From Bacteroidia bacterium (GTDB lineage: Bacteria > Bacteroidota > Bacteroidia > Bacteroidales > CAJPTX01): a stretch of 64,000 nt of DNA. The stretch is taken from positions 1,522 through 65,521 of the forward strand of contig JABCPG020000005.1 in assembly GCA_013333195.2 (NCBI GenBank), read 5' to 3'. Of the stretch, positions 22,799 through 64,000 are shown one piece after another. Numbering within the stretch: the stretch's first letter is position 1; the number at the start of each line of letters is the position of its first letter. The notes under the pieces are model-generated. The model did not search any database, was not told where the DNA came from, and worked only from the letters and a program-made list of their open reading frames with translations. Position numbers and translations under genes: made by a program.

Positions 22799-22800
22799 CC

Positions 22801-24246: not shown

Positions 24247-24312
24247 GTGTAAACACAAACCGCTCCTTAACCCGCCACAAACCGAAATTTTTAAATAAGA
24301 GAGGGCCAAGCT

Positions 24313-47270: not shown

Positions 47271-47463
47271 GGCAAATAATATCCTATTAAAACTCTTAAA
47301 ACAACGTAACTTCTCACAACCTCTAGAAAAACATCAAGCGCGAAATAAAGGAACAGACGTAACGGGATTCAGGAAAAATGAACAAATAGAGAAAATCCCC
47401 AAGACACCATGCGAAGGTAGCGTAAAAAATTCAGATGTACATATGAAAACTACGTAACCTCTC

Positions 47464-48669: not shown

Positions 48670-48762
48670 CTTTACCTGCACTCCTACATGCCACCTATCC
48701 AAAAAGACTTACATAAATTTACCTTTCCCTCCAGCGGTACGGCTAACCACCACGCCATCAAA

Positions 48763-50064
48763 CTAACCTCTCCTTACCAGTGCTTGCAAATCTTTCCAGA
48801 AATCTGGGTAGGATTTCTCCACCGCCTCACAACCCCCGATCCGCACCCCCCGATCGCTTAGCATTCCCGCAGCTCCGAGTACCATTGCGATACGATGATC
48901 TCCATAGGCCGACACTTCACCACCTCCACGCAGAGAGTTCACCCCCTCCACGACTAGCTCGTCACCCTCCAATCTCACCCTACCTCCTAGCTTTGTAAAC
49001 CCCTCAACGAGCGCAGCCGCTCTATCGCTCTCCTTACCCCTCAACCGTTGCGCACCGCCTATCCTGCTCTCCCCATCAGCCTTCGACGCCAGCAGCACGA
49101 GCGCAGGAATTAAATCCGGGCAATCCCCAGCATCGAAAACGAAGCTTCGCGGTCTTGCTCCGCTCCCGCTAATTGTCAACACTCCTCCCGCATCCCAGGA
49201 ATAGCACACCCCGGCGCGCTCCAATGCCAACCGTATAAGGCTATCCGGCTGCAACGAATCCCGCTGCAAATTTACTAGCCTCACGCACCCTCCGTAGGCC
49301 GCCGCAGCGATAAAAACTGCTGCCGCGCTCCAATCCCCATGCACCGCCATGTCGCCATGCGCACGGTACGTCGCGCCCGATGGCACAACAAAAATATTGC
49401 GCACGCGCCGTTGCACCTCCACGCCGAAACTCGCCATCATCGCCACCGTCATCTCTACATACCCGCCACTCGGAACTTTCTCCACCCCCACGCGCACCTC
49501 CCGCCCTAGAAGCGGCGCCGCCATCAGCACCCCCGAGAGCGGTTGCGATGACTCCAATGGTGGGAGCGTAAAAGAGTAGGGCGGTTTCGGCAGGACATAC
49601 CCAAATTTCAGCGTATCTCCCTCCGTAGAATGCAGCATACGCACTGCATCCATCGATTCGCGTAGCCCGCGTTGCGGCCGACCGACCAGCGAACCTTCCT
49701 TACGTATACTCCCGGTCAACCCTTGAAACCCCGCCAAAAAGGGTATCGTCCGTAGCGCAAAGCCCGATTCCCCAGCAGATAACCCTCCTGCGCAGCGCCA
49801 CCTTCCACCCCGTATCTCAATTTTACCTCCTGGCTCGCTACGCACATCCACGCCGCAACGCGCAACCGCCTTCACCACCGCCAACGTATCTGCGCATAGT
49901 CCAGAAAAGTCCAAATACGTAACCCCAATCGCCACCGAGCCCAGCAGCACAGCGCGGAGCTGTTCGCTCTTCGAATCCGGCACCCGCAACGTCCCGCTCA
50001 GCACGCCCGGCTGAATCGTGATACTCTTCCCCATAGCTTCCTCAAAATAGGAAGGGGAGAGCAC
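48763..50064 (-). CDS. aroA: 3-phosphoshikimate 1-carboxyvinyltransferase (EPSP synthase)
   Basis: 433 aa. The N-terminal segment VPDSKSEQLRAVLLG matches the (L)PGSKS-x-x-R motif. The two-domain repeat pattern and the segment YGDHRIAM near the C-terminus also fit. Confidence 0.88.
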   Translation of the reverse strand: MLSPSYFEEAMGKSITIQPGVLSGTLRVPDSKSEQLRAVLLGSVAIGVTYLDFSGLCADTLAVVKAVARCGVDVRSEPGGKIEIRGGRWRCAGGLSAGESGFALRTIPFLAGFQGLTGSIRKEGSLVGRPQRGLRESMDAVRMLHSTEGDTLKFGYVLPKPPYSFTLPPLESSQPLSGVLMAAPLLGREVRVGVEKVPSGGYVEMTVAMMASFGVEVQRRVRNIFVVPSGATYRAHGDMAVHGDWSAAAVFIAAAAYGGCVRLVNLQRDSLQPDSLIRLALERAGVCYSWDAGGVLTISGSGARPRSFVFDAGDCPDLIPALVLLASKADGESRIGGAQRLRGKESDRAAALVEGFTKLGGRVRLEGDELVVEGVNSLRGGGEVSAYGDHRIAMVLGAAGMLSDRGVRIGGCEAVEKSYPDFWKDLQALVRRG

Positions 50065-50107
50065 GAGAACATGCGCCCCCCTTCGTATGCCGCCAGGCTA
50101 GCAGCAG

Positions 50108-51775
50108 CTAAAATAGCCCCGTTATATTACCATCATCGTCAATATCAATTTTTTCAGACGATGGTATCTCTGGCAGACCGGGCATCCGCATAATTTCCCC
50201 CGTAATAGGAATTATAAAGCCAGCCCCTGCCGCAATCTCTATACTCCGTACCGTCACCACGAAATCCTTCGGCCTCCCGAGCAGCTTTGGGTTGTCCGAC
50301 AACGACTTTTGCGTCTTGGCCATACACACCGGCAACTTGTCTAACCCAAGCTCATACACCGTCTTCAAATCCTTCTTGGCTGCCGCTGTGTAATCGATAT
50401 GCACCGCGCCATACACCTGCGTAGCTATCGTCTCTATCTTCTTCTCCGGCGTCCACTCCCAATCGTAGAGGGGCGTGAACTCGCTGGTGCAATGCTCAGC
50501 CACATTGACCACCAACTCCCCGAGCTTCAGCGCGCCCTTGCCACCTTCTCCCCACACATTCACCACCTCCACCGGCACGCCCAGCTCGGCGCACGTCTCG
50601 CGGATAACCTGCAGCTCCTCCTCGGTATCGCTCGTGAAACGATTCATCGCCACCACCGGGCAAATACCGAAAAGCCCCATGTTCTCCACATGCTTTTGCA
50701 GGTTCGAAATCCCTTTTTTCAACGCAGGAACATTAGAGGTCGAAAGCTCCTTTAGCGACGCACCCCCATGGTACTTCAACGCCCGCACCGTGGCCACTAG
50801 CACCACCGCATCCGGGCGTAGGCCTGCCGACTTACACTTTATATCCATGAACTTTTCAGCCCCTAGGTCGAAGCCAAAACCAGCCTCCGTCACCACAAAA
50901 TCGCTATGCGACATCGCCATCTTCGTAGCAATCACAGAGTTCGTCCCTTGCGCTATATTGGCGAATGGCCCCCCATGGATTATTGCCGGTGTATTCTCTA
51001 TTGTCTGCACCAGGTTGGGGAGTATCGCATCTTTGAGCAGCGCGGCCATGGCGCCCTCCGCGTGCAAATCCCGCGCGTACACCGGATTCTTATCGTAGGT
51101 AAATCCCACAAATATATTACCAAGCCGTTGCTTTAAATCGCTTATACTCTCCGCGAGGCAGAGGATTGCCATAATCTCGGAAGCGGCAGTAATGTCAAAA
51201 CCCGTTTCGCGTGGTATTCCTGACCCCGTGCCCCCAAGCCCTACAATCACATGCCGTAGCGAACGATCATTCATATCCATAACCCGTTTCCAGCTCACCG
51301 TGCGGGGATCTATTCCCAATGAACGGGTCGTGCTTTGGATATTATTGTCGATAAGCGCCGCCAGCAGATTATGCGCCTTCTCTATGGCTGAAAAATCACC
51401 AGTGAAATGGAGATTTATATCCTCCATCGGCAGCACCTGCGAGTAGCCACCGCCCGTTGCTCCGCCTTTAACGCCAAACACCGGACCCAGCGAAGGTTCG
51501 CGAAGAACCACCGTTGTCTTCTTCCCCAGCTGATTCATCGCCTGCGAAAGCCCTATTGACACCGTCGTCTTGCCCTCCCCGGCGGGTGTCGGCGATATCG
51601 CCGACACTAGTATGAGCTTTGCCTTCCGCAACTTCTTGGAATCCAAAAAACGCAACGGGATTTTTGCCTTATATTTGCCGTACTGAATTATATCATCACC
51701 AGCAATGCCAAGCCTCTCCGCTATCTCTGTAATCGGTTTCATCTTTGCGCCGTGCGCAATCTCCATATCTGTCAT
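50108..51775 (-). CDS. fhs: Formate--tetrahydrofolate ligase
   Basis: 555 aa with PTPAGEGKTT (P-loop of FTHFS) and VATVRALKYHGG. Confidence 0.96.
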   Translation of the reverse strand: MTDMEIAHGAKMKPITEIAERLGIAGDDIIQYGKYKAKIPLRFLDSKKLRKAKLILVSAISPTPAGEGKTTVSIGLSQAMNQLGKKTTVVLREPSLGPVFGVKGGATGGGYSQVLPMEDINLHFTGDFSAIEKAHNLLAALIDNNIQSTTRSLGIDPRTVSWKRVMDMNDRSLRHVIVGLGGTGSGIPRETGFDITAASEIMAILCLAESISDLKQRLGNIFVGFTYDKNPVYARDLHAEGAMAALLKDAILPNLVQTIENTPAIIHGGPFANIAQGTNSVIATKMAMSHSDFVVTEAGFGFDLGAEKFMDIKCKSAGLRPDAVVLVATVRALKYHGGASLKELSTSNVPALKKGISNLQKHVENMGLFGICPVVAMNRFTSDTEEELQVIRETCAELGVPVEVVNVWGEGGKGALKLGELVVNVAEHCTSEFTPLYDWEWTPEKKIETIATQVYGAVHIDYTAAAKKDLKTVYELGLDKLPVCMAKTQKSLSDNPKLLGRPKDFVVTVRSIEIAAGAGFIIPITGEIMRMPGLPEIPSSEKIDIDDDGNITGLF

Positions 51776-51794
51776 ACAACTAGTTAACTTTTAA

Positions 51795-52859
51795 ATGAAC
51801 ACCATGCATCTACCGTTCCCTGTTCCCACGAACATCCCCCAAAGCCTACGCCACACCCTCCACCCTGCTAAACGTATTCAACTAAAAAAAGTTTTAGCAG
51901 CGCTCGCATTGCTGCTACTTTTGAACCCTTTCACCGCGTGCCGTAGAGACGTTCCCCCCAGCCAATGGCGCGAAACGCTTCGTCTCGCGCGGCTCGACCA
52001 CCTACTTATGCGTGAAGGGGGAGGCGAGGGGATCATGGCCACCGACAGCGCCTTCGGTACGCTTTGGTGTAGGCTTTTACACTTTGAAGGCTCAGAGCGC
52101 TTCGCCGCTTATCTCAACGCCTTCGCGGCCGATTCCTCCATGCAGTCACTCCAGGATTCCATCGAGTACGCCTTTCCCGTCGGTAGCGAACCCGCAAAAC
52201 CTCTCGAAGAAGGTTTTGCATGGCTTCATAGCCACATGCCATCCATCGATATCCCGCGCATATACTTCATCAATGGGGGCTTTAATGCTCCCTGCATGAT
52301 GGATACCTCCATGCTCGGCATCGCCCTCGACTGCTTTCTCGGGCAGAATAGCTCCTACTACGAAAAGCTACAGGTCCCGCAGTACATCCGTAGGAATATG
52401 TCTCCAGCCCGCGTTGCACCCGCTGCCATCATCGGATGGCTGGACGAAATGTATACCCCCTCCGTCAGCTTGCGCACGGTTCTCGATTTCATGCTCTACC
52501 AGGGAAAACTGCTCTACATCGCGCGGCAGGCCCTCCCAAAACTCGCGGAAAGCGTAGTCCTAGGCTTCTCCAAGGAGGAAATCGCATGGCTCGAAAAGAA
52601 CGAAGCCAACATGTGGCAATACCTTTCCGAAAAAAATGTTCTTTTTGATACAAACCCTTTAATCATCAATCAATTCACAGGTCCAGCCCCATTCACACGT
52701 GCCTTTGGCAACGATTCTCCCGGCCGAGCCGCTGCCTGGCTAGGATACCGCATCATCGAGAGTTATTGCAATGCGAATCGCTCCACCCCCATTGAACGCC
52801 TATATTTCAGCACCAACGCGCAGCAAATCTTGGGCAACGCCAAGTACAATCCAAAGTAG
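51795..52859 (+). CDS. Lipoprotein, GldB-like (gliding-motility-associated) / DUF2268-like
   Basis: 354 aa with a lipoprotein signal (LLLNPFTAC). The size and the segment LDCFLGQNSSYYEKLQVPQYIRRNM resemble GldB-family proteins from memory. This was not verified. Confidence 0.45.
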   Translation: MNTMHLPFPVPTNIPQSLRHTLHPAKRIQLKKVLAALALLLLLNPFTACRRDVPPSQWRETLRLARLDHLLMREGGGEGIMATDSAFGTLWCRLLHFEGSERFAAYLNAFAADSSMQSLQDSIEYAFPVGSEPAKPLEEGFAWLHSHMPSIDIPRIYFINGGFNAPCMMDTSMLGIALDCFLGQNSSYYEKLQVPQYIRRNMSPARVAPAAIIGWLDEMYTPSVSLRTVLDFMLYQGKLLYIARQALPKLAESVVLGFSKEEIAWLEKNEANMWQYLSEKNVLFDTNPLIINQFTGPAPFTRAFGNDSPGRAAAWLGYRIIESYCNANRSTPIERLYFSTNAQQILGNAKYNPK

Positions 52860-53069
52860 GATTCACTAACTCACCCCATAAAAGGTCGCATATGCGCATT
52901 CAAGCTCTCTGCAAACTGAGCAACTCGGCATCATGACGAACAGCACTACAGAACCCGCGGTACAGCGCGTACCGGCCATGGGTCCTCCAGCCCTTACGTC
53001 TGGACGCACGTTGCGGAACAATCGCAAGTTCCTCCATTCCTCCCTCTCGCGCCTATTAACCTTCTACCC

Positions 53070-54662
53070 ATGATTAAACGATTCGCCATTCAAATCCGTT
53101 CCTTTTTTGCCGAGAATGGGATTAGAGTACCTCTATTTCTGCTAGCCGCTGCATTGCTTTGGCTCGTCCCCGAATTCCTAAACTTCGCCTCTTTCCGTTG
53201 GTTTCGTCCGCGCGCCGCCATCAGCTTCCTCCTCTCTTTTTCCGCCTTCCTTCTCCTTGCGTACTATCTACGCACCATTCTCGCCAAAGTGATTGCCTTC
53301 CTGTTTTTAGCGCTGGTCTCCGTAAACATGGGACTACTCACAGCATGTCTCTACCTATGGCAAAGCGATTTCACCGTATCGGAATTCCTCGCGCTCACGC
53401 ACACATCACCAGGAGAAATACGCACCATGGCGCCCGCCATAATGCCCTACGTGGGGGTCGCCCTAAGCTTTTTTATAATAGCCTGCACACTTCTCGTCTG
53501 GGGCCATCGGGTAATCCGCGCCGCCAAGCGCAGAGAGATAGTTAAACGAGTGGGATTCATAACCCTTACCCTCACCCTTTGCATCACGCTCATCGGTTGC
53601 CCCATCCTGAGCCTACTCCATAGGGACTCAAGGACAGCCGAAAGGGTTTGGCATACCACGCCCCTCTACTTTTTTGCCGCCGTGAACGAGGGTATAAATA
53701 TACAAATCCGTTTGCGGCAGGTGCAAAAATATAGCTCTACAATCCAGGCACCAACTGTACTCCCCAACAGCACTCGCAACGTAGTAGTCATCCTCGGCGA
53801 AAGCGCCCGGCGCGATGCCCTTTCCCTTTACGGCCAGCAATACGCTACCACACCCATTATCGACGCGCAAATCGATAACCTACTCATCTACGACAGCGCC
53901 GTCGCCTGCGCGCCCCATACTCTCTACGCCATCCCCCCCATGCTCTGCTCCGCGCTGCCCAGCACCTCCTTCAATCCACGCGATATGGCCAACAACGTCA
54001 TCCATCTGGCCAATCTATCCAATATCTGGACCACCTACTGGATCTCCAACCAAGGAAAATATGGGGTTCACGATTCTGAAAACGGCATAATCGCCGGGTT
54101 CTCCAAACGGCAGCACTGGATGCTCCCCACCTACCAACACGACGGGGTGCTACTCCCATTTCTCGACTCCGCGCTACACGATGACAGTCCCAAAAGACTG
54201 ATATTCATCCATCTGGCCGGCAGCCACACCCCAGCCCATGATCGTTTCCCAAAGCAGTTTGCTCGCTTTACGCTTACTGATCAGGAACTCGCCGATTACC
54301 TTAACAGCGTGCTGTACACCGACTACATCATCGGGGAAATTTATCACCGGCTGGAAGATTCACCTTCCATCGTTATCTACCTCTCCGACCACGGCCAATC
54401 GCGCATCAACGGGCATTTCCTACATCACTGGAGCAAAAAAGGCGTGGATGTCCCCCTATTCATTTGGCATAGCCAAAGCGTCGACTCTACCTTCAAGCGC
54501 CACGGGCATATACAGCAACCCACCTCCACCAGCGATCTTTTCGAATTGCTTAAATTTTATCTCGGAATTCAAACTCTCGACCGCAAACCGGACAACACCG
54601 ACCTCACGGTGTGCGAACCCGACAACGCAACCACCTACCGCCAGCTCCCGGAGGGTAACTAG
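53070..54662 (+). CDS. Phosphoethanolamine transferase (EptA/sulfatase-family, lipid A/LOS modifying type)
   Basis: 530 aa with about five N-terminal TM helices, then a sulfatase-fold domain with VVVILGESARRD, HLAGSHTP and YLSDHGQS. Confidence 0.85.
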   Translation: MIKRFAIQIRSFFAENGIRVPLFLLAAALLWLVPEFLNFASFRWFRPRAAISFLLSFSAFLLLAYYLRTILAKVIAFLFLALVSVNMGLLTACLYLWQSDFTVSEFLALTHTSPGEIRTMAPAIMPYVGVALSFFIIACTLLVWGHRVIRAAKRREIVKRVGFITLTLTLCITLIGCPILSLLHRDSRTAERVWHTTPLYFFAAVNEGINIQIRLRQVQKYSSTIQAPTVLPNSTRNVVVILGESARRDALSLYGQQYATTPIIDAQIDNLLIYDSAVACAPHTLYAIPPMLCSALPSTSFNPRDMANNVIHLANLSNIWTTYWISNQGKYGVHDSENGIIAGFSKRQHWMLPTYQHDGVLLPFLDSALHDDSPKRLIFIHLAGSHTPAHDRFPKQFARFTLTDQELADYLNSVLYTDYIIGEIYHRLEDSPSIVIYLSDHGQSRINGHFLHHWSKKGVDVPLFIWHSQSVDSTFKRHGHIQQPTSTSDLFELLKFYLGIQTLDRKPDNTDLTVCEPDNATTYRQLPEGN

Positions 54663-54805
54663 CCTAAGTGAAGCTTAAAAAGCGTGCCCTGCAAAGCTAA
54701 CGCCCTGAAGGGGGCTAAGCCCCAACGATTCTTTCCGAATGGGCCTCCGGTAGGGTAGCCGTACTTTTCCCAAGCCAACCGATTCACACAACTCAGGATA
54801 CCCAA

Positions 54806-55489
54806 CTACCGAGGGGCTTCAAACAAACGCGCATCAATCGGCTCATTTATGAGTATCTTCTCCGCTTTCATCGTGACCGTCGCAATGCCTTGCTTGAACT
54901 TCATCTTGAAAGGAACCATTACGCCGGACACCTTACGGTAGTCCAAAAACGTTACTTTCAAATTATCTTCATTCACCAACCCGCGCAGCAACCCGGTATC
55001 TTTTGATAGATATATTGTTTCTTTATCCTCCCCCAACTTGACTACCCAGCACTGCTCATCCCCATATTTTTCTTCGCCCAGCAAGCGCGCTTTCCCAGCT
55101 TCCCAAGCGGGTATTCCAAAAGGAAAAGGTTGATTTAGCGCGCTATCTACCGCGCTGCGCTTCATAGGTTTCACAACCATTTTTCCCTCTTTCCCGCTAG
55201 CCTTCCATCCCCCCGTGTCCCTCGCGCATTCGATCATCCACCCCACAAAAGGAGCCTTCACCTTGAGGTAGTATGCCTTTCCTGTCTCTACGTACGTCGT
55301 GATGGGGATCGACATGAAAAATGTTTTCGCCACTTGCTCCATATACCAACTCTTCATACTCGACGCATCACCCATGGCTCGGGCGCTCGCGGCTAAAATG
55401 CTTTCTACATCCTGCCCCCAGCATACCGTGCAGCGCATCGCCAAAGCAATAGCCGCAACCCATACCAACACACCCTTTCTTGCAAACAT
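54806..55489 (-). CDS. Secreted hypothetical protein, LolA-like / lipoprotein-sorting-fold candidate
   Basis: 227 aa with a signal peptide and a beta-rich composition. Its resemblance to outer-membrane lipoprotein-sorting (LolA-like) domain proteins is only an impression. Confidence 0.45.
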   Translation of the reverse strand: MFARKGVLVWVAAIALAMRCTVCWGQDVESILAASARAMGDASSMKSWYMEQVAKTFFMSIPITTYVETGKAYYLKVKAPFVGWMIECARDTGGWKASGKEGKMVVKPMKRSAVDSALNQPFPFGIPAWEAGKARLLGEEKYGDEQCWVVKLGEDKETIYLSKDTGLLRGLVNEDNLKVTFLDYRKVSGVMVPFKMKFKQGIATVTMKAEKILINEPIDARLFEAPR

Positions 55490-55510
55490 ATTTTTTCCTT
55501 CTCACCGAGC

Positions 55511-55792
55511 CTACTCCGACCTTCCCTCCTCTTGCTCCCTCTGCGCCGCATCCAGCTGCCGACGCTTTAATGCAAAAAAATCATCGAGCGCCATCTGCAG
55601 CAACTCCTCCGGCTTACAACGCTGGTAGCTCGCGAGCATTCGTAATTTCTCCACAGACTCTTCACTAATGGCGATACCGCTATCGCCCCCTAAGAACTGC
55701 TGCGACTCCGCATTTTTCGTATCGCTAAAATGCACCGTCTGCGATTGCAACGCGGTTTGTATATCCCTAATTGTCTGACGCTTCTTAGCCAT
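55511..55792 (-). CDS. Small acidic protein translationally coupled to the ParA-family gene (possible partner/adaptor)
   Basis: 93 aa from the Met at 55792 (MAKKRQTIRD...). Its start overlaps the upstream gene's 3' end by 8 nt. It has a basic N-terminus and a helical, acidic C-terminus. It is not ParB-like. Confidence 0.5.
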   Translation of the reverse strand: MAKKRQTIRDIQTALQSQTVHFSDTKNAESQQFLGGDSGIAISEESVEKLRMLASYQRCKPEELLQMALDDFFALKRRQLDAAQREQEEGRSE

Positions 55793-56546
55793 TTCCCTGC
55801 CTCTCAATTTCTTTCGCCAACGCCCTATAATCCTCCGCGCCCCGGCTCTTCGGCGCGTACTCTAGTATCGACTGATGAAATGCTCCGCACTCCATCAGTG
55901 AAATATCCTGACGTATATACGTTTCATATAATCTATTCACCGTCAACTCATTCTCGGACAGACTCTTTATCACCGCCTTGCTGAAGTTAGTGCGCGGATC
56001 GAATTTCACGAAAAGTATTCCCCCCAACTCCAGCTTTGCGTTCATCCGCATTCGCACCTTTTTCGCCGTCTGCAATATCCTATCAAGCCCTATGAAAGCA
56101 AAATTTTCAGCCTGCATCGGCACAATGTACCGATCTGCGGCCACCAGGGAAGCCACCGAAAGCGTCCCTAGGCTCGGGGGGCAGTCAATCAACACGTAGT
56201 CAAAATCATTTTGCACCGGCTCTAAATGCTCTTTAATGAGGAACTCCCTCCCCGGCTCATTGTTGAGCTGCTGCTCGTAGGTAAGCAGCAATGGCGTAGA
56301 GGGTACTATCCACATTTTCTCGACCCTTCGCGCCGCCTCTTTAATCGAGCTGGTCCCATCGCATAAAAGGCCCGCGTGCTGCTCCGCATTGGCTACACCA
56401 AGGGCCGATGATAGGTTGCATTGGCTATCCATGTCTAGCAAGAGCACCCTTTTCCGCTTAGCAGCCAACGCAGCGCCCAAATTTATGGTAGTAGTGGTTT
56501 TACCTGTCCCCCCCTTGTTGTTAATGATTGATATAACCCGCGCCAT
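55785..56546 (-). CDS. ParA/Soj-family (deviant Walker A) ATPase
   Basis: 253 aa. The N-terminus ISIINNKGGTGKTTTTINLG is a deviant Walker A, and LLLDMDSQCNLS and DYVLIDCPPSLG are also present. Confidence 0.88.
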   Translation of the reverse strand: MARVISIINNKGGTGKTTTTINLGAALAAKRKRVLLLDMDSQCNLSSALGVANAEQHAGLLCDGTSSIKEAARRVEKMWIVPSTPLLLTYEQQLNNEPGREFLIKEHLEPVQNDFDYVLIDCPPSLGTLSVASLVAADRYIVPMQAENFAFIGLDRILQTAKKVRMRMNAKLELGGILFVKFDPRTNFSKAVIKSLSENELTVNRLYETYIRQDISLMECGAFHQSILEYAPKSRGAEDYRALAKEIERQGNG

Positions 56547-56895
56547 ACTACACCCCTATATTTTTATGCAACGAACAACGTCTCGAATTTTCCCCTCGCT
56601 CCTCACGCTTCCACGCGCTAAAGGTATGCATTATTTTTTAATCCTTCGCGTACGCTACAAAGCGCGCTGCACCTTTCAGCAGGAAACCACCCACACCAAA
56701 ACACGCCGCGAACGCCTATCCACCAATTAAGAAAAAATGGTGTTCGTGAGATTCACAGCATACATATTAACACTCATCAGTAGTACAATGTGATAGTGAA
56801 ACATACATACCTTTCAACGCTTTACGGTGGGCAGGCACGCATCAAATATTCTCTCCGTCAGGGATAGCCCGCGCGCTGCCAGCAGCATCCATCGC

Positions 56896-58245
56896 CTAGC
56901 GCTCGCTAAAATATCTCGTTACACGCTCCAACGCGCTGCTCTGCGCAAAAACCACAGCACGATCGCCAGCCTCAACCACAGTTTCCCCCGTGGCTATCAG
57001 CGATTTCCCATCATGCACTATCCCCCCCACAATAGCCCCCCGCGGAAAATTTAAATCCTTAAGACGGCCCCTGGTTACAGCCGCCCGCGGCTGCGCCACC
57101 AGCTCCAGCACCTCTGCATCTGTCCCCATAAGGCATCGCATATGCGTAATATCTCCACCCAGCGTGTATCTATATATACGCGCCGCCGCCACGAGCTTTT
57201 TATTCACCACATTATCTATACCCATGCGCATAGCCAAATTCATATACTCCAGATTTTCTACCTCCGCTATTATTTGCCTTACCCCCAGCTGCTTAGCCGC
57301 CATGCCCATCAGGATGTTCGTCTCCGAATTTCCCGTCACGGCCACAAAAGCATCCACGCTATCAAGCCCTTCACTCTGCAAAAATTTCACGTCGCGCCCA
57401 TCCCCATGCAGCAACAACGTTCTGGTAAAAAAAGGTTCCAGCTGCTTACATTTTTCCGCGTTGCTCTCTATCAGTTTTATGGACTTCACCCGATCCTCCA
57501 AATCCAAACACGTGCGGGCACCCATACGGCTCCCCCCCACCACCATCAGACGCTCTACCTGCTGCAACGACCCAACCACACGTTTACGCCATGCATCCAC
57601 ACCCTTTTGGTTGGCGATAACGTACACCACATCCCCATTCTGCAACTCGCAATCCCCATTCGGTATATGCGTATCCATGTCCCGAAGCAACGCTACCACC
57701 CGAAACGCCAACTCACCGAACGACTTATCCACCCGCTTTAGCGACATGCCGCAAAGACCCATATCCGACGTTATACGGAAGGAGGTCAATACCAACTTCC
57801 CATCAGAGAAATCAATGTATTCCCGCCCCCCCATCTCGCCAAGCATACTGATTATGGTTTGCGACGCCAATTTTTCAGGGTAAATCAGCGAATCGATACC
57901 CATTTCCCTAAACAAGGCTTGATTCTTTAATGACAGATACTCATTGTTGTCAATGCGCGCCACAACCTGTTTAGTCCCCATACGTTTCGCCAGCATCGCG
58001 CCGATAATATTGGTCTCCTCCGCGTGCGCCACCGCTACAAATAGGTCTGTTTTTTCCACGTGCGCAGATTTTAGCGTGGTGGGAGAGGTCACCGACCCCT
58101 GAAGCGTCACCACATCTGCCACCTCATGCAGCTGCTGCAAATTGCTCTCCTCAGGATCTATCGCCACAACGTCATGCTTCGCGTCCGAAAGCATCGTTGC
58201 TAAATGTGTACCCACCTCCCCAATTCCAGCCACTATAATTCGCAT
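56896..58245 (-). CDS. trkA: Trk system potassium uptake protein TrkA
   Basis: 449 aa with two RCK/NAD-binding halves (MRIIVAGIGEVGTHLA and LMVVGGSRMGARTC). Confidence 0.93.
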   Translation of the reverse strand: MRIIVAGIGEVGTHLATMLSDAKHDVVAIDPEESNLQQLHEVADVVTLQGSVTSPTTLKSAHVEKTDLFVAVAHAEETNIIGAMLAKRMGTKQVVARIDNNEYLSLKNQALFREMGIDSLIYPEKLASQTIISMLGEMGGREYIDFSDGKLVLTSFRITSDMGLCGMSLKRVDKSFGELAFRVVALLRDMDTHIPNGDCELQNGDVVYVIANQKGVDAWRKRVVGSLQQVERLMVVGGSRMGARTCLDLEDRVKSIKLIESNAEKCKQLEPFFTRTLLLHGDGRDVKFLQSEGLDSVDAFVAVTGNSETNILMGMAAKQLGVRQIIAEVENLEYMNLAMRMGIDNVVNKKLVAAARIYRYTLGGDITHMRCLMGTDAEVLELVAQPRAAVTRGRLKDLNFPRGAIVGGIVHDGKSLIATGETVVEAGDRAVVFAQSSALERVTRYFSER

Positions 58246-58566
58246 TATCTTCCTTTCCCTTTCTTCCTAACCGATTGATTGCAAAATAACCTTTTTGTCG
58301 ACAACTCAACAGAAACTTTAGCGTGGAGCGCGAAGTAAGTTCTTTTTTTCGGCGCCACCCAAATAGATTCACAATGCCATGCGTAGAAAATAAAATAGCA
58401 ATGCCTCATCATCAAATGATGCACCATTCTACCGTAAAATGAAAAAATATTAAATATTACGCAAAAATATTTCGAGTGGCAATTCTCTTAAAGCATCCAT
58501 CCCTGTAGTTCCGCACCATCCTATCCCAGCAAACCTACTACTTATATCCTATCTAATAGGCACCAA

Positions 58567-58616
58567 ATTCGCATCAAAGTTGGTTTTCTTCGGGAAAAAC
58601 CAACTTTGATGCGAAT
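58567..58616. repeat. Palindromic repeat element, copy B
   Basis: ATTCGCATCAAAGTTGGTTTTC-ttcggg-AAAAACCAACTTTGATGCGAAT forms a roughly 22-bp stem. The arm sequence is the same as copy A at 32421-32468. Confidence 0.85.
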
Positions 58617-58709
58617 TGTGTCCCTCATTGAATGCTCTTTACCTCCATTATGCCACACAATGAGAGCCAAGTACCGACACGCATTGCGCCGACATAGAGC
58701 CAGCAGCTA

Positions 58710-58717
58710 TAATTTTG
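58710..58717 (+). promoter_or_regulatory. Bacteroidota -7 promoter box (TAnnTTTG)
   Basis: TAATTTTG lies 36 nt upstream of the ATG at 58753. This supports the trimmed start of the next gene. Confidence 0.45.
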
Positions 58718-58752
58718 CAGCATCAGTGAAAATCAACGATTTTACAGTAAAT

Positions 58753-59379
58753 ATGGGACACTATAAATTGCAGCGGCCCTCCTGGAATCCACGTGGCCAA
58801 GAAATAAAGTACGTAGTCAAGGAAAGAATCCTTACGCGGGGTTGGCCAAAAACGTACCACGACGCCAAAACGTTGAAGCAACAAAGGCAGAGGGGAAGGG
58901 TGGAGCAACTAAACCTATTCCTACCCAAGCTAAAATCCCTCCTTGCTCTTGGGTATAGCAGAGGAAATAAACCCAACGGTCGCGCGGTCGGAAGCTACCA
59001 AATGGCATTCAGCCAGGCGCTCCACGACTGCTTTCCACGAGATGGAATGGGGAACTCCATCCAAATGGAAAACCTTCGACTCACGGATGGAAATGCTAAC
59101 CTCCCAACAGGGCTGCTCATAAAATCGAATAATGGCATAATAGTTATTTCATGGGAACGAATAGTAGTACAAATAAATAGAATAATACTATTCGCAGCTA
59201 GAAATACAAAAAGTAAAGCGTGGTTCACGCAAAGCGTACACGTAGAATCCAACTGCAACAGTGCTGCCATCCGAATGCCGGAAAGCTGGCTCTCGCAAAA
59301 CATTGAATGTTGGACGGCCTTCCTACCAGAGGGTAGTAGGCTAAAAACAGCCACACAATACGTGCGCCTCACGTGCTAA
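58753..59379 (+). CDS. Hypothetical protein (Bacteroidota-type, possibly DUF6266-like)
   Basis: 208 aa from MGHYKLQRPSW. The longer ORF-track start at 58606 lies inside the palindromic repeat and upstream of the promoter box. The family assignment is a recollection only. Confidence 0.5.
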   Translation: MGHYKLQRPSWNPRGQEIKYVVKERILTRGWPKTYHDAKTLKQQRQRGRVEQLNLFLPKLKSLLALGYSRGNKPNGRAVGSYQMAFSQALHDCFPRDGMGNSIQMENLRLTDGNANLPTGLLIKSNNGIIVISWERIVVQINRIILFAARNTKSKAWFTQSVHVESNCNSAAIRMPESWLSQNIECWTAFLPEGSRLKTATQYVRLTC

Positions 59380-59566
59380 AATTCTGTAATAAAAATATTT
59401 AATAGCATGTAACAATTCCAGAGAACCCGTTTGATTGGCTACAACATTAGCCGCACAGCGCGCTCACAGGTACAGTAAGGCTGCACCCCTCAGCGTACGG
59501 CATCGCCCCCATAGCTACGAGCGCAAAAATTGGTAACTTCGCGTAGGGGAAATCAACCATTCCGAA

Positions 59567-60535
59567 ATGCACATAGAACAGCACATCAAGGAAATTCTTA
59601 GGCAAAACGCTTTCGTAGCCATCCCGGGAGTGGGAAGCTTTCACCGCGTATACAACCCAGCGTATGTAGAAACAGACAGTAACACCATTTTCCCCCCTTC
59701 CTACACCATCCTCTTCGATTCGCAAAGAACATTCGATGATGGTGCTATGGCTAGCTACATTGCTAATACCTTTGGCGCCAGCGCGCACGATGCCGAATGC
59801 TGCGTGCAGGAATGGGTATCAACGGTCGAAGCACGACTGGCCTCGAAAGAAACCATATATTTCGATGGCCTCGGCTCGCTCAGCAATTCTGGCGATTCTC
59901 TCACCTTCGCCCCCTTACCCCAAGATGAGCTCGCCACAATTTACTATGGGCTTACCCCATTACCCCTACCAAGTAAAATATTACATACGAAGAGCAAAAA
60001 AAATATAAAAAGGAAACGCTACGCAATAGTTATTCCAATTGCGCTAACCCTGGCCTGCGCAGGCGGGTATGCCGCTTACCAGTTCCTCGATTGGCCCTAC
60101 ATCATATCCCTATGGCCCTGGAACAAGGGGTCAAACATGCACACCGCCTCTAGCACCCCTCCCACCAATGCTTCGGCCATGCCAATCACCACACCCACGA
60201 AGGCTATCGACTCTGTAGTAGCCCCCTCCACGACCCAAGCTGCACTCACCCTCGTTGACAGCACGCTACACCAACGCAATGCCCTGCAACCTGTAGAGAA
60301 TAGCATTACCTACTACATCGTGGCTGGAAGCTTCAGAAGCAGTGAAAATGCGCAAAAACAGATTAGAGAGCTTCTAAGTATGGGCTTTAAAGACCCAAAA
60401 ATTCGTAGAGAAAATGAATTCTACCAAGTTTACATTGCCTACTACACAAGCCTTCCCCTTGCGCAAGCGAAGCTCAACGAATTATGGAATCAGCATGGAG
60501 AACAATTCTGCTTCCTCAAAAGGGTAAAACAGTAG
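59567..60535 (+). CDS. SPOR-domain protein with an HU-like (HU-CCDC81-type) N-terminal domain
   Basis: 322 aa. The N-terminus reads IKEILRQNAFVAIPGVGSF..., followed by a central TM. The C-terminus YYIVAGSFRSSENAQKQIRELLSMGFKDPKI..EFYQVYIAYYTSLPLAQAKL is a SPOR fold pattern. Confidence 0.75.
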   Translation: MHIEQHIKEILRQNAFVAIPGVGSFHRVYNPAYVETDSNTIFPPSYTILFDSQRTFDDGAMASYIANTFGASAHDAECCVQEWVSTVEARLASKETIYFDGLGSLSNSGDSLTFAPLPQDELATIYYGLTPLPLPSKILHTKSKKNIKRKRYAIVIPIALTLACAGGYAAYQFLDWPYIISLWPWNKGSNMHTASSTPPTNASAMPITTPTKAIDSVVAPSTTQAALTLVDSTLHQRNALQPVENSITYYIVAGSFRSSENAQKQIRELLSMGFKDPKIRRENEFYQVYIAYYTSLPLAQAKLNELWNQHGEQFCFLKRVKQ

Positions 60536-60548
60536 AGCTAAAAGGGAG

Positions 60549-60806
60549 ATGGCAAGGGCTGTTAATACACCACGCGAAAAGCTGTCAATGGCATTGTTAA
60601 TAACTCGCAATAACAAACAAAAAGTTTATTTGGAATTTAAGAACGTCGAACCGATTGGGAAATTCTACGTAAGAAGCAAGCAAAAGAATTTACTTTTTCG
60701 CGCAACTTTTCAACAAGATATTCGCCCCAAAAAGACTTCTAATGGATATGTAAGTGAATTTGCAATTAACCGTATTTCACGTAAAATGAATACACATTTT
60801 CTATAA
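60549..60806 (+). CDS. Doubtful small hypothetical ORF
   Basis: 85 aa in an AT-rich segment with no recognisable motif. It may be non-coding. Confidence 0.2.
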   Translation: MARAVNTPREKLSMALLITRNNKQKVYLEFKNVEPIGKFYVRSKQKNLLFRATFQQDIRPKKTSNGYVSEFAINRISRKMNTHFL

Positions 60807-60964
60807 AACTCACCGAAAATCACCGTTTTTTATGTGAAATACGCCCTAAAATAGAAAACGGTTATAAACGCCTTTTAGGCTATTTAACACAGTTAATAGA
60901 ATATCACTATCATAACTAACCCTTTTTATGAAATTTAATTAAAAATATAATAGTCAGGGAGAGG

Positions 60965-62011
60965 ATGAAGGAACATAAGGGGCAGTCATCGCAAAGGGAC
61001 GAAAATTATAGGCAGGAGGGGATTATTGAAGAATCCGATGGCCAAATCCGTCCTCGTCAATTTAACGATTTTGCAGGGCAGGAGAAGATTCTAAAAAATT
61101 TGCGCGTTTACGTTCTTGCGGCGAAGGAGCGAGGCGAGCCGTTGGACCATGTGCTGTTCCATGGGCCTCCCGGGTTAGGAAAGACCACGCTGGCCCAAAT
61201 AGTTGCCAACGAGCTTGGCGTAGGTATCAAAATGACGAGCGGCCCCGCTATTGATAAGCCTGGGGATTTGGCTGGCATTCTCACGAACCTCGCGGTAGGG
61301 GATGTCCTTTTCATCGATGAAATCCATCGCCTTTCTCCCGTGGTGGAGGAGTATCTATACTCTGCCATGGAGGATTTCAGCATCGACATCATTATTGATA
61401 AGGGTCCCTCCGCGCGTAGTATCCAGTTGGGTCTTAATCCGTTCACCCTTGTGGGAGCCACCACGCGGAGCGGCTTGCTTACTGCCCCCTTGAGGGCGCG
61501 CTTTGGAATTAACTTCCTTCTAGAGTACTATGAAACTGACGTTATTGCATCGATTGTGCGGCGCTCATCAACTATTCTTAATGTGAAAATCGATGATGGG
61601 GCTGCGCAGGAGATAGCGCGAAGAAGTAGGGGCACACCGAGGATCGCGAATGCGCTACTGCGCAGGGTGAGAGATTTTGCGCAGGTTGAGGGGAGTGGCG
61701 ATATCGATTTACCCATTGCGCAGTACTCGTTGGATTCGTTGAGTATCGACTGTTTGGGCCTTGATTTGATGGATCGTAAAATTCTTCTTACCATTATCGA
61801 TAAATTTGCGGGTGGCCCCGTTGGGCTAAATACGATTGCGACGGCTGTAGGGGAGGATGCGGGTACGGTTGAAGATGTCTACGAACCCTACTTGATTAAA
61901 GAGGGTTTTTTGAAACGTACTCCCCGCGGGCGAGAGGTTACCGCGTTGGCGTACGAGCATTTTGGGCGTCAGCCTATGTTTAAGCAGCGCTCAATTTTCG
62001 ATGACTTCTAG
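60965..62011 (+). CDS. ruvB: Holliday junction branch-migration helicase RuvB
   Basis: 348 aa with [14 protein letters not shown] (Walker A), [10 protein letters not shown] (Walker B) and [18 protein letters not shown]. Confidence 0.96.
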
Positions 62012-62786
62012 CCGGTGAGTCTTTGTTGTATTTGTAATTCCTTCTTTTCCGCGAGTATTTATATTTATTTCCCTTTACGTGTGGTGCTGCTTGATTGTTT
62101 GTTGAACGAATGTGGGTGTGCGATTGTGCGTTTACTGCTTGGGGCTTCATTTTTACCTCATGCCACTTTGTTGATTCTTTAGGGAGAGCGTGCGATTTAT
62201 TTTAGCGGAATTGCACCATTCGCTTGATAGGGTAGGGGAAGCGAGTCTGTGGTGACGATACATATTTATTCTTCAGGTTGGTCAACGTTTTTGCTGGAAG
62301 TGCTGGTGGGCCTTGATTCGCTTTAGCTGATTCTCTTTACTTTTTTAGAGAATGGTTGCTTTTTTCTGCGCGGTGATTTCTCTTTACATGTTCATTTCTT
62401 TGTTGTTCTACTTAGCTACTTTTTTGCGTTCCGCGGAAAATTGGGGCTTCGCGTGGTTGTTTTTCAAATGGCTAGTTGCTTGGGGTGTGCCTGTCGACCA
62501 CTTTGTGTGGTGTTCACATTGTTGCTTGCGCCTAATTACCTAAATTGAGTTTTTATGGAATTATAGAGTGTTTTTAGCTTAGGTGCGTGCTGACTTTGGT
62601 ATTTTGCGTTTTAGGTTTTATTTATTTACTGCGCGATAGTTCTGTGTACAGCGTTTAGCTTTACCATTTGCAGTTGCGGTTGTGTGAATTATTTTTTAAT
62701 TGTGCGGAACGCCTTTTATCCTTCAGTTTATGCGGTTTGAATTTATTTCTATACACTAGCAATAACTCCTGTTTGATGATATTGAG

Positions 62787-62802
62787 TGTTCCACGTGGAA
62801 CG
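62787..62802. other. parS-type site 1
   Basis: TGTTCCACGTGGAACG has a perfect 14-bp palindromic core, GTTCCACGTGGAAC. It matches the symmetric parS variant TGTTCCACGTGGAACA at 15/16 positions. Confidence 0.7.
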
Positions 62803-62937
62803 CAAATACTACGGCAGGGGAGGTAATTTATTTCGTGTGACGTGCTTGGGTGTAGATTCTCCTTGGCTGTTTGAACCGTGCGAATGCCCTTTATTTTTGA
62901 GGTGGAAGGATACTATTTTCTTGCTTGTTCGTTATGG

Positions 62938-62953
62938 TGTTTCATGTGGAACA
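62938..62953. other. parS-type site 2 (degenerate)
   Basis: TGTTTCATGTGGAACA has one central C>T change relative to parS-type palindromes. Confidence 0.55.
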
Positions 62954-63081
62954 TTAAGCGTGCGACCCGTGTTGGGTGGCTTTCTTCTCTGGTTGCAAGG
63001 TTGGTTTCCTTCTTCCCGCAGGGGTTGAGACACCCATCTTTAAAGTGCAGTTGATGTGATTTTCCGGAATGCGTGTTGCTG

Positions 63082-63097
63082 CGTTTCACGTGAAACT
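63082..63097. other. parS-type site 3
   Basis: CGTTTCACGTGAAACT has a core, GTTTCACGTGAAAC, identical to the consensus parS TGTTTCACGTGAAACA. Confidence 0.75.
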
Positions 63098-63180
63098 TCT
63101 GCGCGGTGCGTTCACCGTGGGGAGCTGCATGGCTTTCCTTGCGAGGAGTGCCGGGTAATTTTGATGCTGGTTGGTGGTTG

Positions 63181-63196
63181 CGTTTCACGTGAAACA
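63181..63196. other. parS-type site 4
   Basis: CGTTTCACGTGAAACA matches the consensus parS at 15/16 positions. Confidence 0.75.
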
Positions 63197-63572
63197 CGAA
63201 TTGGGGTATTGGGTTTGAGTGCGCGGAGGTCCCCATTGGGCAGGGTTTGGTGGAGTTACGTTTTTCTGCATGGGAACGACGCGTTTCTAGCGGTATAGTG
63301 GTGCTGATGTTTTAGAGGTGGTAATTCCGTCACTTTAGTTCCAAGAGTTTGGTTTTTCCGCTTTGTGCGCATATGCTTCGGTGGGCGGTTGATGGAGGCA
63401 GGGGGTGGCGATTCGCTATGGGGCGGTGGGTGGTAGAAGGGTGCATGAGTTCGGCGTTGGGCGGATGGCATTGCTCAGGATGGAGCTTGGTGCTATCCAC
63501 CGGTCGATGTGACCATTGCTGGGAAGGGCTTATGTGTGGAGAAGAAGATTTTTGGATAATAGGATGTCTAGT

Positions 63573-64000
63573 TTATTCGTGGGACGTTGCCATACCCTCC
63601 AAAAAATTCCAAACGATGGAGGCTTTCTTGCTGCCTACCAGTTTTATCAATGGGTCTAGCCCTTCCCTTTTTACGTTTTCTAGACTCCCGTACGCTCGAT
63701 ATATGGTTTTAATGGTTTCTTTCCCTATCCCATCTAGCTCGCTGAGAACGGAATGTTCAGTCTCCTTTTGGTGTTTCTTCCTGTAGTGGGTTATGCCAAA
63801 TCGGTGTGCCTCGTCCCTTAGGCTTTGCATAAGCTTTAGCTCATCGCTCCTCTTATCGAGGTAAATGGGGTAGGGGTCGTTCGGGAGGTAGATTTCTTCC
63901 AGCTTTTCCGCCAGCGCAACGATAGGCAGCTTATCAATGAGATTCAATTCCTTGAGGGTTTCTACGCCGATATGTAGCTGTCCCTTCCCCCCATCTAGAA
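63573..64000 (-). CDS. uvrC: Excinuclease ABC subunit C, C-terminal part; the 5' end lies outside the window
   Basis: The frame is open to the window edge. An endonuclease V-like region (LMQSLRDEAHRFGITHYRKK) is followed by the (HhH)2 tail ELDGIGKETIKTIYRAYGSLENVK. Confidence 0.88.
   Translation of the reverse strand, partial: LDGGKGQLHIGVETLKELNLIDKLPIVALAEKLEEIYLPNDPYPIYLDKRSDELKLMQSLRDEAHRFGITHYRKKHQKETEHSVLSELDGIGKETIKTIYRAYGSLENVKREGLDPLIKLVGSKKASIVWNFLEGMATSHE

What the first reader, a model, noticed from the sequence alone, without database searches (positions are those of the whole stretch)
62787..63196. Tight cluster of four parS-type palindromes in a non-coding region
Seen: TGTTCCACGTGGAACG (62787), TGTTTCATGTGGAACA (62938), CGTTTCACGTGAAACT (63082) and CGTTTCACGTGAAACA (63181). 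Three have perfect 14-bp palindromic cores and one has a single central change. Centre-to-centre spacings are about 151, 144 and 99 bp. Established: the ParB/Spo0J binding site parS has the broadly conserved consensus TGTTNCACGTGAAACA, and the symmetric variant TGTTCCACGTGGAACA occurs in some proteobacteria. parS sites mark the origin-proximal region and load SMC/condensin. Unusual here: chromosomal parS sites are more often dispersed and frequently intragenic, whereas this is a plasmid-centromere-like tetrad inside a 1.56-kb gene desert, with no parB in the window. The six-frame ORFs across it (FHVKR, FHVER and VSRET peptides) are translations of the palindromes.
Basis: partly seen in the sequence, partly recalled or inferred. 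Interest (0 to 1): 0.7.

Follow-up and report, generated by a model that had tools for sequence, protein, structure and literature searches.

The report
Origin-adjacent chromosomal parS array
Four copies of the bacterial "centromere" sequence parS sit in a non-coding spacer about 2 kb from the likely replication origin of an uncultured Bacteroidia chromosome; this is a real, conserved example of a known kind of element, not a new one.

Summary
Four parS-type palindromes lie at 62787, 62938, 63082 and 63181, in a 1,561-bp non-coding gap between the convergent genes ruvB and uvrC. They are the only such sites in the 64 kb.

The array is conserved. Every relative with this gap (four species-level lineages, eight loci) has 4-6 sites in it and none elsewhere in 18-64 kb. 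Between species nothing else in the gap is conserved. Across 33 sites, 10 of 14 core positions are invariant. The variation falls at the tolerated Y/R position and at the central CpG.

GC skew flips from negative to positive about 1.9 kb to the left of site 1. The cumulative minimum is at nt 60922, in the 430-bp stretch upstream of ruvB. The array therefore sits beside the probable origin, which fits ParB loading sites that form the partition complex.

The gap has no DnaA-box cluster, no known RNA family and no plasmid or phage similarity. No parB lies within -61 to +10 kb, and I could not test whether the genome encodes one.

The nearby Soj-like parA is paired with a small ribbon-helix-helix protein rather than ParB. 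This pairing holds across Bacteroidales.

Verdict: new member of a known kind, of modest interest.

The parts
62787..62802 (.). parS site 1, TGTTCCACGTGGAACG (perfect 14-bp palindrome built from GTTCCAC half-sites)
   Evidence: The same position in conspecific strains reads CGTTTCACGTGAAACG.
62938..62953 (.). parS site 2, TGTTTCATGTGGAACA (central CpG>TpG change; hybrid half-sites)
   Evidence: Kept at the same position in L082-L084 and L166. It lies in a block that is almost 100% conserved between strains.
63082..63097 (.). parS site 3, CGTTTCACGTGAAACT (perfect consensus core)
63181..63196 (.). parS site 4, CGTTTCACGTGAAACA (perfect consensus core)
   Evidence: It shares 17-22 nt including upstream flank with site 3, which suggests local duplication.
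62423..62441 (.). Decayed fifth site: TTTGCGTTCC-GCGGAAAAT. It shares the TTTGCGTTCC flank with site 1 (reverse strand) but lacks 2 central bp (palindrome TTCCGCGGAA at 62429-62438).
   Evidence: (I4). The strains differ by an indel exactly at its centre.
62012..63572 (.). Non-coding spacer between the 3' ends of the convergent genes ruvB and uvrC. It is G+T-rich on the + strand (GC skew +0.28, AT skew -0.39) and is the fastest-evolving stretch of the locus.
   Evidence: No Rfam or tRNA match. No plasmid or phage similarity.
60965..62011 (+). ruvB, left flank of the spacer
   Evidence: Pfam RuvB_N, AAA_lid_4 and RuvB_C.
63573..64000 (-). uvrC 3' end (cut by the window end), right flank of the spacer
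   Evidence: Pfam UvrC_RNaseH_dom. Full-length uvrC is seen in L083.
60536..60964 (.). Candidate replication origin. This A+T-rich intergenic stretch contains the cumulative GC-skew minimum (nt 60922) and an inverted pair of DnaA-box-like words, TTATTAACA (60595-60603, - strand) and TTTTCAACA (60707-60715, + strand), 112 bp apart.
   Evidence: 'orf85' (60549-60806) is not conserved as a protein in L002.
59567..60535 (+). HU-CCDC81 + SPOR protein gene, directly left of the candidate origin. This clade is predicted in the literature to tether the nucleoid for partitioning in Bacteroidetes.
   Evidence: Pfam; PMC5499826.
55785..56546 (-). Soj-like parA, 6.2 kb left of the array
   Evidence: Pfam AAA_31/ParA. 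Best PDB matches are chromosomal Soj proteins. It is 57-66% identical to the ParA of many Bacteroidales.
55511..55792 (-). 93-aa partner of ParA: basic flexible N-terminal tail plus a ribbon-helix-helix domain. It is not a ParB.
   Evidence: No Pfam or NCBIfam hit. AlphaFold model shows strand-helix-helix at pLDDT 87-96. The top Foldseek hits are mostly RHH proteins. Homologous small ORFs follow this ParA type in 5 of 5 outgroups.

Best explanation
The four palindromes are working chromosomal parS sites, a compact centromere array placed next to the replication origin of an uncultured Bacteroidia chromosome.

Proposed mechanism, by analogy with characterised ParABS systems: ParB dimers recognise each 16-bp palindrome, bind CTP, close into clamps and slide onto flanking DNA. 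Four loading sites within about 400 bp should give a high local loading rate and a dense partition complex beside the origin. That complex would be segregated early and would probably recruit SMC/condensin.

The array sits in a transcription-free spacer between the 3' ends of two convergent genes. This spares coding sequence, and it may also help confine ParB clamps (speculative).

The array changes by local duplication and decay of sites, while selection keeps the number at about 4-6.

Shown here: the sites exist, they are conserved, sequence constraint is confined to them, and they lie beside the skew switch.

Inferred only: ParB binding, spreading, SMC loading and any effect of convergent transcription.
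For: (1) Two sites match the universal parS core exactly and two differ by two bases each from GTTTCACGTGAAAC. They are the only matches in 64 kb.

(2) Conservation. Conspecific strains L082, L083, L084 and L166 keep four sites at the same positions. Three other species (L002; L162-164; L165) have 4-6 sites in the same ruvB/uvrC gap and none elsewhere in 18-21 kb.

(3) Every word of 9 nt or longer shared by the four species' gaps, and all but one 8-mer (the A/T tract AAAATAAA), is part of parS. After masking parS only A/T tracts recur.

(4) Across 33 sites, 10 of 14 core positions are invariant. Variation is limited to T/C at position 4, A/G at position 11 and central CpG transitions. The half-sites are GTTTCAC (46), GTTCCAC (15) and GTTTCAT (5). 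GTTTCAC and GTTCCAC are the two half-site forms reported to be bound by ParBs (PMC7022226).

(5) Within the species, core divergence is 3.6-7.1% against 12.7-17.2% for the rest of the gap.

(6) Origin proximity. Third-codon and intergenic GC skew is negative for every gene (one is about zero at +0.02) up to 60535 and positive from ruvB through 10 kb beyond the window. The cumulative minimum is at 60922, and it falls in the same intergenic stretch in 6 of 8 loci.

(7) Background rate. In 2.33 Mb of other Bacteroidota DNA there are only two sites with up to 1 mismatch and one locus with a pair. Those sites lie in intergenic DNA next to mnmG/gidA, so the consensus is in use across the order.
Against: No ParB gene lies in the 64-kb window or in the next 10 kb. 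I could not search the rest of the genome, so the cognate reader is assumed and not shown.

The neighbouring parA is paired with an RHH protein, not ParB, so the local gene context does not supply the expected partner.

The origin is assigned from skew alone. No canonical DnaA-box cluster was found anywhere in the window.

There are no binding, localisation or Hi-C data.
Confidence: 0.8

Rival explanations
1. The palindromes are bound by a different protein, not canonical ParB. Candidates are the locally encoded ParA-partner RHH protein (which would make this a type-Ib-like centromere) or a ParB paralogue or CACGTG-reading regulator.
For: No parB lies within -61 to +10 kb. A Soj-like ParA with an RHH partner is encoded 6-7 kb away, on the other side of the candidate origin. 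RHH dimers do read short palindromes (established knowledge, e.g. the MetJ met-box). No other repeat array that could act as the RHH protein's centromere was found upstream of parA.
Against: The sites match the universal HTH-ParB parS consensus at all constrained positions. That match would be a remarkable convergence for an unrelated fold. The ParA-RHH module occurs in 5 of 5 outgroup Bacteroidales loci with no parS-like site within 9-21 kb. Isolated parS sites occur elsewhere, next to mnmG, without that module. The module and the sites therefore do not co-vary.
Confidence: 0.07
2. The gap is the replication origin itself, and the palindromes are origin elements (for example binding sites for an initiator or regulator), not a centromere.
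For: The gap is the largest non-coding region near the skew switch. Its left part is A+T-rich (GC 0.35 at 62.5-62.8 kb; 0.28-0.36 in L002). parS and oriC are commonly neighbours.
Against: DnaA-box counts in all four species' gaps equal the shuffled expectation, and no non-parS motif is shared. The whole gap, and ruvB, already carry right-replichore composition. The cumulative skew minimum lies about 1.1 kb left of the gap, in a different intergenic stretch that does have conserved DnaA-box-like words.
Confidence: 0.08
3. The sites are non-functional repeats: relics of a tandem repeat or small mobile element, or chance palindromes.
For: In L002 three to four sites lie in a 210-bp tandem unit (2.6 copies at 76% identity). 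In the window, sites 3 and 4 share flanking bases. A decayed copy exists at 62429.
Against: The flanks decay while the 14-bp cores stay intact across four species. No copies occur elsewhere in 64 kb. There is no plasmid or phage similarity. Chance is excluded, with 0 of 100 shuffles reaching the observed count.
Confidence: 0.03

Closest known systems
Origin-proximal chromosomal parS clusters of the ParABS system (e.g. Caulobacter crescentus; Pseudomonas aeruginosa parS1-4; Bacillus subtilis)
   Same: The same 16-bp consensus with the same tolerated degeneracy. Several sites are grouped close to the origin. The expected role is ParB nucleation, spreading and SMC recruitment (PMC5815017, PMC4368675, PMC7022226, PMC4536313).
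   Different: This array is much tighter: four sites in 410 bp, against five in 5 kb in Caulobacter and kilobases to tens of kilobases in Bacillus (PMC5815017). The sites lie in a dedicated non-coding spacer between convergent genes, not inside genes. parB is not adjacent. The host is an uncultured Bacteroidia, a phylum for which my literature searches found no experimental parS/ParB work.
Iterated plasmid centromeres such as F sopC (tandem 43-bp units, each with a SopB-binding inverted repeat)
   Same: Several copies of a palindromic ParB-family binding site in non-coding DNA. In L002 the sites sit in a tandemly repeated 210-bp unit. Copy number changes by duplication and decay.
   Different: The array is on a chromosome with housekeeping genes. 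It is not adjacent to a parAB operon. In the window the spacing is irregular (151/144/99 bp) with no detectable tandem unit. It has no similarity to any plasmid record.
Borrelia burgdorferi split system: ParA/ParZ plus ParB/parS/SMC (PMC9712426)
   Same: parA forms an operon with a small non-ParB gene that has a conserved basic N-terminal peptide. parS is present near the origin. parB is not in the parA operon.
   Different: The partner here is an RHH protein with no detected similarity to ParZ. It is widespread in Bacteroidales and not confined to one lineage. No functional data exist, and whether ParB here has lost its ParA-stimulating peptide is unknown.
Type Ib plasmid partition modules (ParF-ParG of TP228; delta-omega of pSM19035)
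   Same: This comparison concerns the neighbouring parA module only. It has a small Walker-type ParA followed by a small protein with a flexible N-terminal tail and an RHH DNA-binding domain.
   Different: The ParA is closest to chromosomal Soj proteins. No iterated centromere repeats were found at the operon. The module is chromosomal and vertically conserved.

Membership tests
Chromosomal parS centromere (ParABS) | 16-bp inverted repeat matching tGTTNCACGTGAAACa | tested here: met
Across 33 sites in the lineage, 10 of 14 core positions are invariant.
Chromosomal parS centromere (ParABS) | Location in the origin-proximal domain | tested here: met
   The GC-skew sign change and cumulative minimum are at nt 60922, 1.9 kb from site 1. 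The origin is inferred from skew only.
Chromosomal parS centromere (ParABS) | Sites under purifying selection compared with their surroundings, and confined to the locus | tested here: met
   Only parS words are shared between species' gaps. Core divergence is 3.6-7.1% against 12.7-17.2% for the flanks. No sites occur elsewhere in the 64-kb window (72 kb counting the L083 extension).
Chromosomal parS centromere (ParABS) | Cognate ParB (ParB N-terminal CTPase domain plus HTH) encoded in the genome | not testable with these tools
   ParB is absent from the window and from the next 10 kb. The rest of the genome could not be reached.
Chromosomal parS centromere (ParABS) | ParB binding, CTP-dependent spreading and SMC loading at the sites | not testable with these tools
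   This requires ChIP-seq, EMSA or Hi-C.
Plasmid-type iterated centromere (sopC-like) | Regular tandem repeat units, each carrying one binding site | tested here: inconclusive
   L002 has a 210-bp unit (2.6 copies by TRF). TRF finds nothing in the window. Only sites 3 and 4 share 17-22 nt.
Plasmid-type iterated centromere (sopC-like) | Lies next to its parAB operon on an extrachromosomal replicon | tested here: not met
   The flanking genes are housekeeping genes (polA, eno, aroA, ruvB, uvrC). parA is 6.2 kb away with four genes in between. No plasmid or phage similarity.
oriC located inside the 1.56-kb gap | Cluster of DnaA boxes plus an unwinding element at the skew switch | tested here: not met
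   DnaA-box counts equal the null in four species' gaps. There is no shared non-parS motif. The skew minimum is about 1.1 kb left of the gap.
Type Ib ParA / RHH partner module (for parA 55785-56546 and the 93-aa ORF) | Small Walker ParA without an N-terminal HTH, followed by a small RHH protein with a flexible tail | tested here: met
   Pfam and PDB matches for ParA. The AlphaFold model shows strand-helix-helix at pLDDT 87-96. Foldseek top hits are RHH proteins, best probability 0.95, but E-values are weak for so small a domain.
Type Ib ParA / RHH partner module (for parA 55785-56546 and the 93-aa ORF) | Iterated centromere or operator repeats at the operon | tested here: not met
   The only conserved block upstream of parA is promoter-like. 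No conserved iterons were found.

The most novel reading that the evidence does not exclude
In this lineage, and perhaps in many Bacteroidales, partition duties may be split as in Borrelia. The Soj-like ParA would be driven by its small RHH partner (a ParG/ParZ-like adaptor with a conserved MAKK...I..IQ tail). An unlinked ParB would use the expanded, origin-adjacent parS array mainly as an SMC-loading and origin-organising platform. The array expansion (4-6 sites where other Bacteroidales have 1-2 next to mnmG) would be an adaptation to that role.
Probability: 0.15. Interest if true: 0.6.

Novelty: new member of a known kind. Interest (0 to 1): 0.3.

Why it matters
The array gives a precise, conserved landmark for the centromere and the probable origin in an uncultured Bacteroidia lineage (its contigs co-occur in the same assembly accession series as Candidatus Bacteroides periocalifornicus). 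My literature searches found no experimental work on chromosome segregation or oriC in this phylum.

The array is a clean natural example of parS copy-number turnover (duplication, decay and tandem units) under selection for several closely spaced loading sites. That bears on how ParB-CTP clamp loading rate scales with site number.

The side finding may matter more. The standard "chromosome partitioning ParA" of many Bacteroidales is paired with a small RHH protein, not with ParB. If that holds generally, it would change how ParABS annotations in this phylum should be read.

Tried and rejected
- DnaA boxes (TTATCCACA, up to 1-2 mismatches) in the window, in L002 and in four species' gaps: no enrichment.
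- De novo search for any second conserved motif in the gaps: only A/T tracts.
- Rfam at gathering and permissive thresholds, and tRNA/tmRNA: nothing.
- Sigma-70 promoter and terminator scan of the gap: no promoter-like sites, terminators at the chance level. The promoter model does not suit Bacteroidota in any case.
- Plasmid and phage similarity of the gap: none.
- CACGTG as a restriction-type word: not unusual in the window (20 against about 13 expected).
Nothing found.
- Sequence search of the 98-aa ORF against PDB, Pfam and NCBIfam: uninformative.
- Centromere-like iterons upstream of parA: none conserved.
- I first read the symmetric double change at site 1 (GTTCCAC...GTGGAAC to GTTTCAC...GTGAAAC) as covariation. 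I dropped that reading because hybrid sites are common, so the two half-sites vary independently.
- Livny et al. 2007 (PMC2168934) could not be retrieved.

Full report
**1. Observation**

The four sequences are present as quoted, with cores at 62788, 62939, 63083 and 63182 and spacings of 151, 144 and 99 bp. Allowing 2 mismatches to GTTYCAYGTGRAAC, they are the only matches in 64 kb: 8 strand-matches against 1.54 expected, and no shuffle out of 100 reached 8. The other 11 half-sites in the window are at chance density.

The sites lie in a 1,561-bp gap between the stop codons of ruvB (60965-62011, +) and uvrC (63573 onward, -). No gene is called in the equivalent gap of public contigs. Rfam and tRNA scans are empty.

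**2. Organism and context**

GldB, SusC/SusD and a Por secretion tail place the window in Bacteroidota. RuvB's closest relatives are uncultured Bacteroidia. The nearest named relative is Candidatus Bacteroides periocalifornicus at 74%. The window carries housekeeping genes (polA, eno, fumC, aroA, def), so it is chromosomal.

Neither parB nor dnaA is in the window or in the 10 kb beyond it, which I could read from same-species contigs.

**3. Comparative evidence**

Three metagenome contigs (L082-L084, 95-97% nucleotide identity) and L166 belong to the same species, or nearly so. All keep four sites at the same positions.

Three further species-level relatives were examined: L002 (RuvB 84%), L162-164 and L165. 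The last two were reached through homologues of a small ORF. All have the same gene order and a 977-1,920-bp ruvB/uvrC gap with 4-6 sites. None has a site elsewhere in 18-21 kb.

Between species the gaps cannot be aligned. Every shared word of 9 nt or longer, and all but one shared 8-mer (the A/T tract AAAATAAA), is part of parS. After masking parS only A/T tracts recur.

Within the species the gap is the fastest-evolving stretch, at 68-95% identity per 100 bp against 96-99% in most coding windows. Even so, core divergence is 3.6-7.1% against 12.7-17.2% for the rest of the gap.

Across 33 sites, 10 of 14 core positions never vary. Changes occur only at T/C (position 4), A/G (position 11) and the central CpG. 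The first two give the two half-site forms, GTTTCAC and GTTCCAC, that ParBs are reported to bind (PMC7022226).

The array turns over. L002 has a 210-bp tandem unit carrying sites. Sites 3 and 4 of the window share flanking bases. A decayed copy lacking two central bases sits at 62429.

The next outgroup, L003, has the same convergent ruvB/uvrC pair. Its gap is only about 170 bp and carries no site.

In 2.33 Mb of other Bacteroidota DNA there are only two sites with up to 1 mismatch and one locus with a pair. Most of the sites found, at up to 2 mismatches, lie in intergenic DNA beside mnmG/gidA, with uvrC 2 kb away in two loci. The consensus is therefore in use across the order, and this lineage has an expanded array.

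**4. Origin proximity**

GC skew is negative across the left 60 kb and positive from ruvB onward. It stays positive for 10 kb beyond the window in L083 and 7 kb in L002.

Skew at third codon positions and in intergenic DNA removes coding-strand effects, and it gives the same picture. Every gene up to the HU/SPOR gene (end 60535) is negative (one is about zero at +0.02). ruvB, the gap and all the downstream genes examined are positive.

The cumulative minimum is at nt 60922. It falls in the same HU/SPOR-ruvB intergenic stretch in 6 of 8 loci.

That 430-bp stretch is A+T-rich. It holds an inverted pair of DnaA-box-like words (TTATYAACA and TTWTCAACA) at a fixed spacing of 111-112 bp in four species. 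A corresponding inverted pair of TTATGAACA words aligns at the same place in L003. Three of the window's four matches to TWTTNAACA fall there.

I treat this stretch as a candidate oriC of moderate confidence. By contrast, the 1.56-kb gap has no DnaA-box enrichment, and all of it already has right-replichore composition. The array therefore begins about 1.9 kb to the right of the probable origin.

**5. The neighbouring parA**

A Soj-like ParA (55785-56546) is encoded 6.2 kb to the left. It is followed by a 93-aa protein (55511-55792) and not by parB. The protein has no family match.

Its model shows a low-confidence N-terminal segment carrying the conserved basic MAKK motif, followed by a confident strand-helix-helix module. 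The top structural matches are mostly ribbon-helix-helix proteins, including PutA-RHH, CopG, Arc and ParG.

This ParA is 57-66% identical to the protein annotated as 'chromosome partitioning protein' in many Bacteroidales. In five of five outgroup contexts it is followed by a small ORF (82-106 aa), homologous in the three I aligned, and never by ParB. None of those loci has parS nearby.

The module is therefore a Bacteroidales-wide feature and is independent of the array. It recalls the ParA/ParZ plus ParB/parS/SMC split of Borrelia (PMC9712426). Nothing here tests that idea.

**6. Mechanism**

The best-supported reading is a chromosomal centromere. ParB nucleates at the four sites, loads as CTP clamps and builds a dense complex beside the origin, which is segregated early and probably loads SMC. 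These steps are inferred from characterised systems.

The position between convergent 3' ends keeps the array out of coding and promoter DNA. In Borrelia, ParB spreading is reported to fall where transcription converges on it (PMC9712426). The arrangement could therefore help confine ParB, but this is speculation.

**7. Comparison and novelty**

Tight origin-proximal clusters are known: five sites in 5 kb in Caulobacter (PMC5815017) and four near oriC in P. aeruginosa (PMC4368675).

Three things are particular here. The array is compact (410 bp). It occupies a dedicated, rapidly evolving non-coding spacer. It shows sopC-like tandem growth in one relative.

It meets the sequence, position and conservation criteria for a chromosomal parS locus. 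The ParB and binding criteria could not be tested. It is a new member of a known kind.

**8. Limits**

ParB was not found, and the genome could not be searched as a whole. The origin rests on skew and weak DnaA-box-like words. The RHH assignment rests on a model built from a shallow alignment (9 sequences), with weak Foldseek E-values.

Noticed in passing
window 55511-56546 (-); L167-L171: The Soj-like 'chromosome partitioning' ParA of many Bacteroidales (57-66% identical) is followed by a small ORF of 82-106 aa, and never by ParB, in all five outgroup contexts and in this lineage. The window's 93-aa version models as an RHH protein with a basic tail, and the three outgroup ORFs I aligned are 28-41% identical to it. 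The family has no Pfam or NCBIfam model.
   Followed up: partly
window 60536-60964: Conserved intergenic element upstream of ruvB. It is an inverted pair of DnaA-box-like words (TTATNAACA type) at a fixed 111-112-bp spacing in four species, followed by an A+T-rich variable stretch. A corresponding inverted pair of TTATGAACA words aligns at the same place in L003. It coincides with the cumulative GC-skew minimum (nt 60922) and is a candidate oriC. 'orf85' (60549-60806), which is called here in public contigs, is probably not a gene.
   Followed up: partly
window 59567-60535 (+): An HU-CCDC81 (two domains) + SPOR protein gene lies directly beside the candidate origin, with conserved synteny down to L003. 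This clade was predicted to tether the nucleoid to the envelope for partitioning in Bacteroidetes (PMC5499826).
   Followed up: partly
window 3542-5272 (+), 6270-8000 (+), 12112-13902 (-): Three methyl-accepting chemotaxis protein genes (Pfam MCPsignal) in a genome that otherwise looks like a gliding/T9SS Bacteroidia. To my knowledge MCPs are unusual in this phylum. The first two are 576-aa ORFs of identical length, possibly paralogues (not compared).
   Followed up: no
L011 19493-19545; L014 3090; L025 3123: In other Bacteroidales, single or paired parS sites lie in the intergenic DNA next to mnmG/gidA. In L014 and L025 the order is uvrC, apt, parS, mnmG. This suggests an older link between parS and this neighbourhood.
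   Followed up: partly
L010 9723; L090 3419: A parS-like word with 2 mismatches (GTTTTCACGTGGAACG) is conserved inside what looks from its N-terminal sequence like a phenylalanyl-tRNA synthetase alpha gene in two unrelated contigs. It could be an intragenic parS or a coding coincidence.
   Followed up: no
L001 (Logan SRR11562277), corresponding to window 57054-63321: The only Logan contig carrying the identical RuvB ends inside the gap, about 125 bp after site 4. This may be an assembly break caused by strain variation or by the repeated sites.
   Followed up: no
window 46000-64000 and L083: The replication-strand skew is very strong. Third-position GC skew reaches -0.54 on the left and +0.56 on the right, and AT skew also flips sign. 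Skew-based origin mapping is unusually sharp in this lineage, whereas L003 shows little skew.
   Followed up: partly
window 25695-30386 (+): A 1,563-aa CobN/Mg-chelatase-family protein gene lies directly downstream of a SusC/SusD/DUF4929 cluster (19745-25545). The pairing is odd and was not examined.
   Followed up: no
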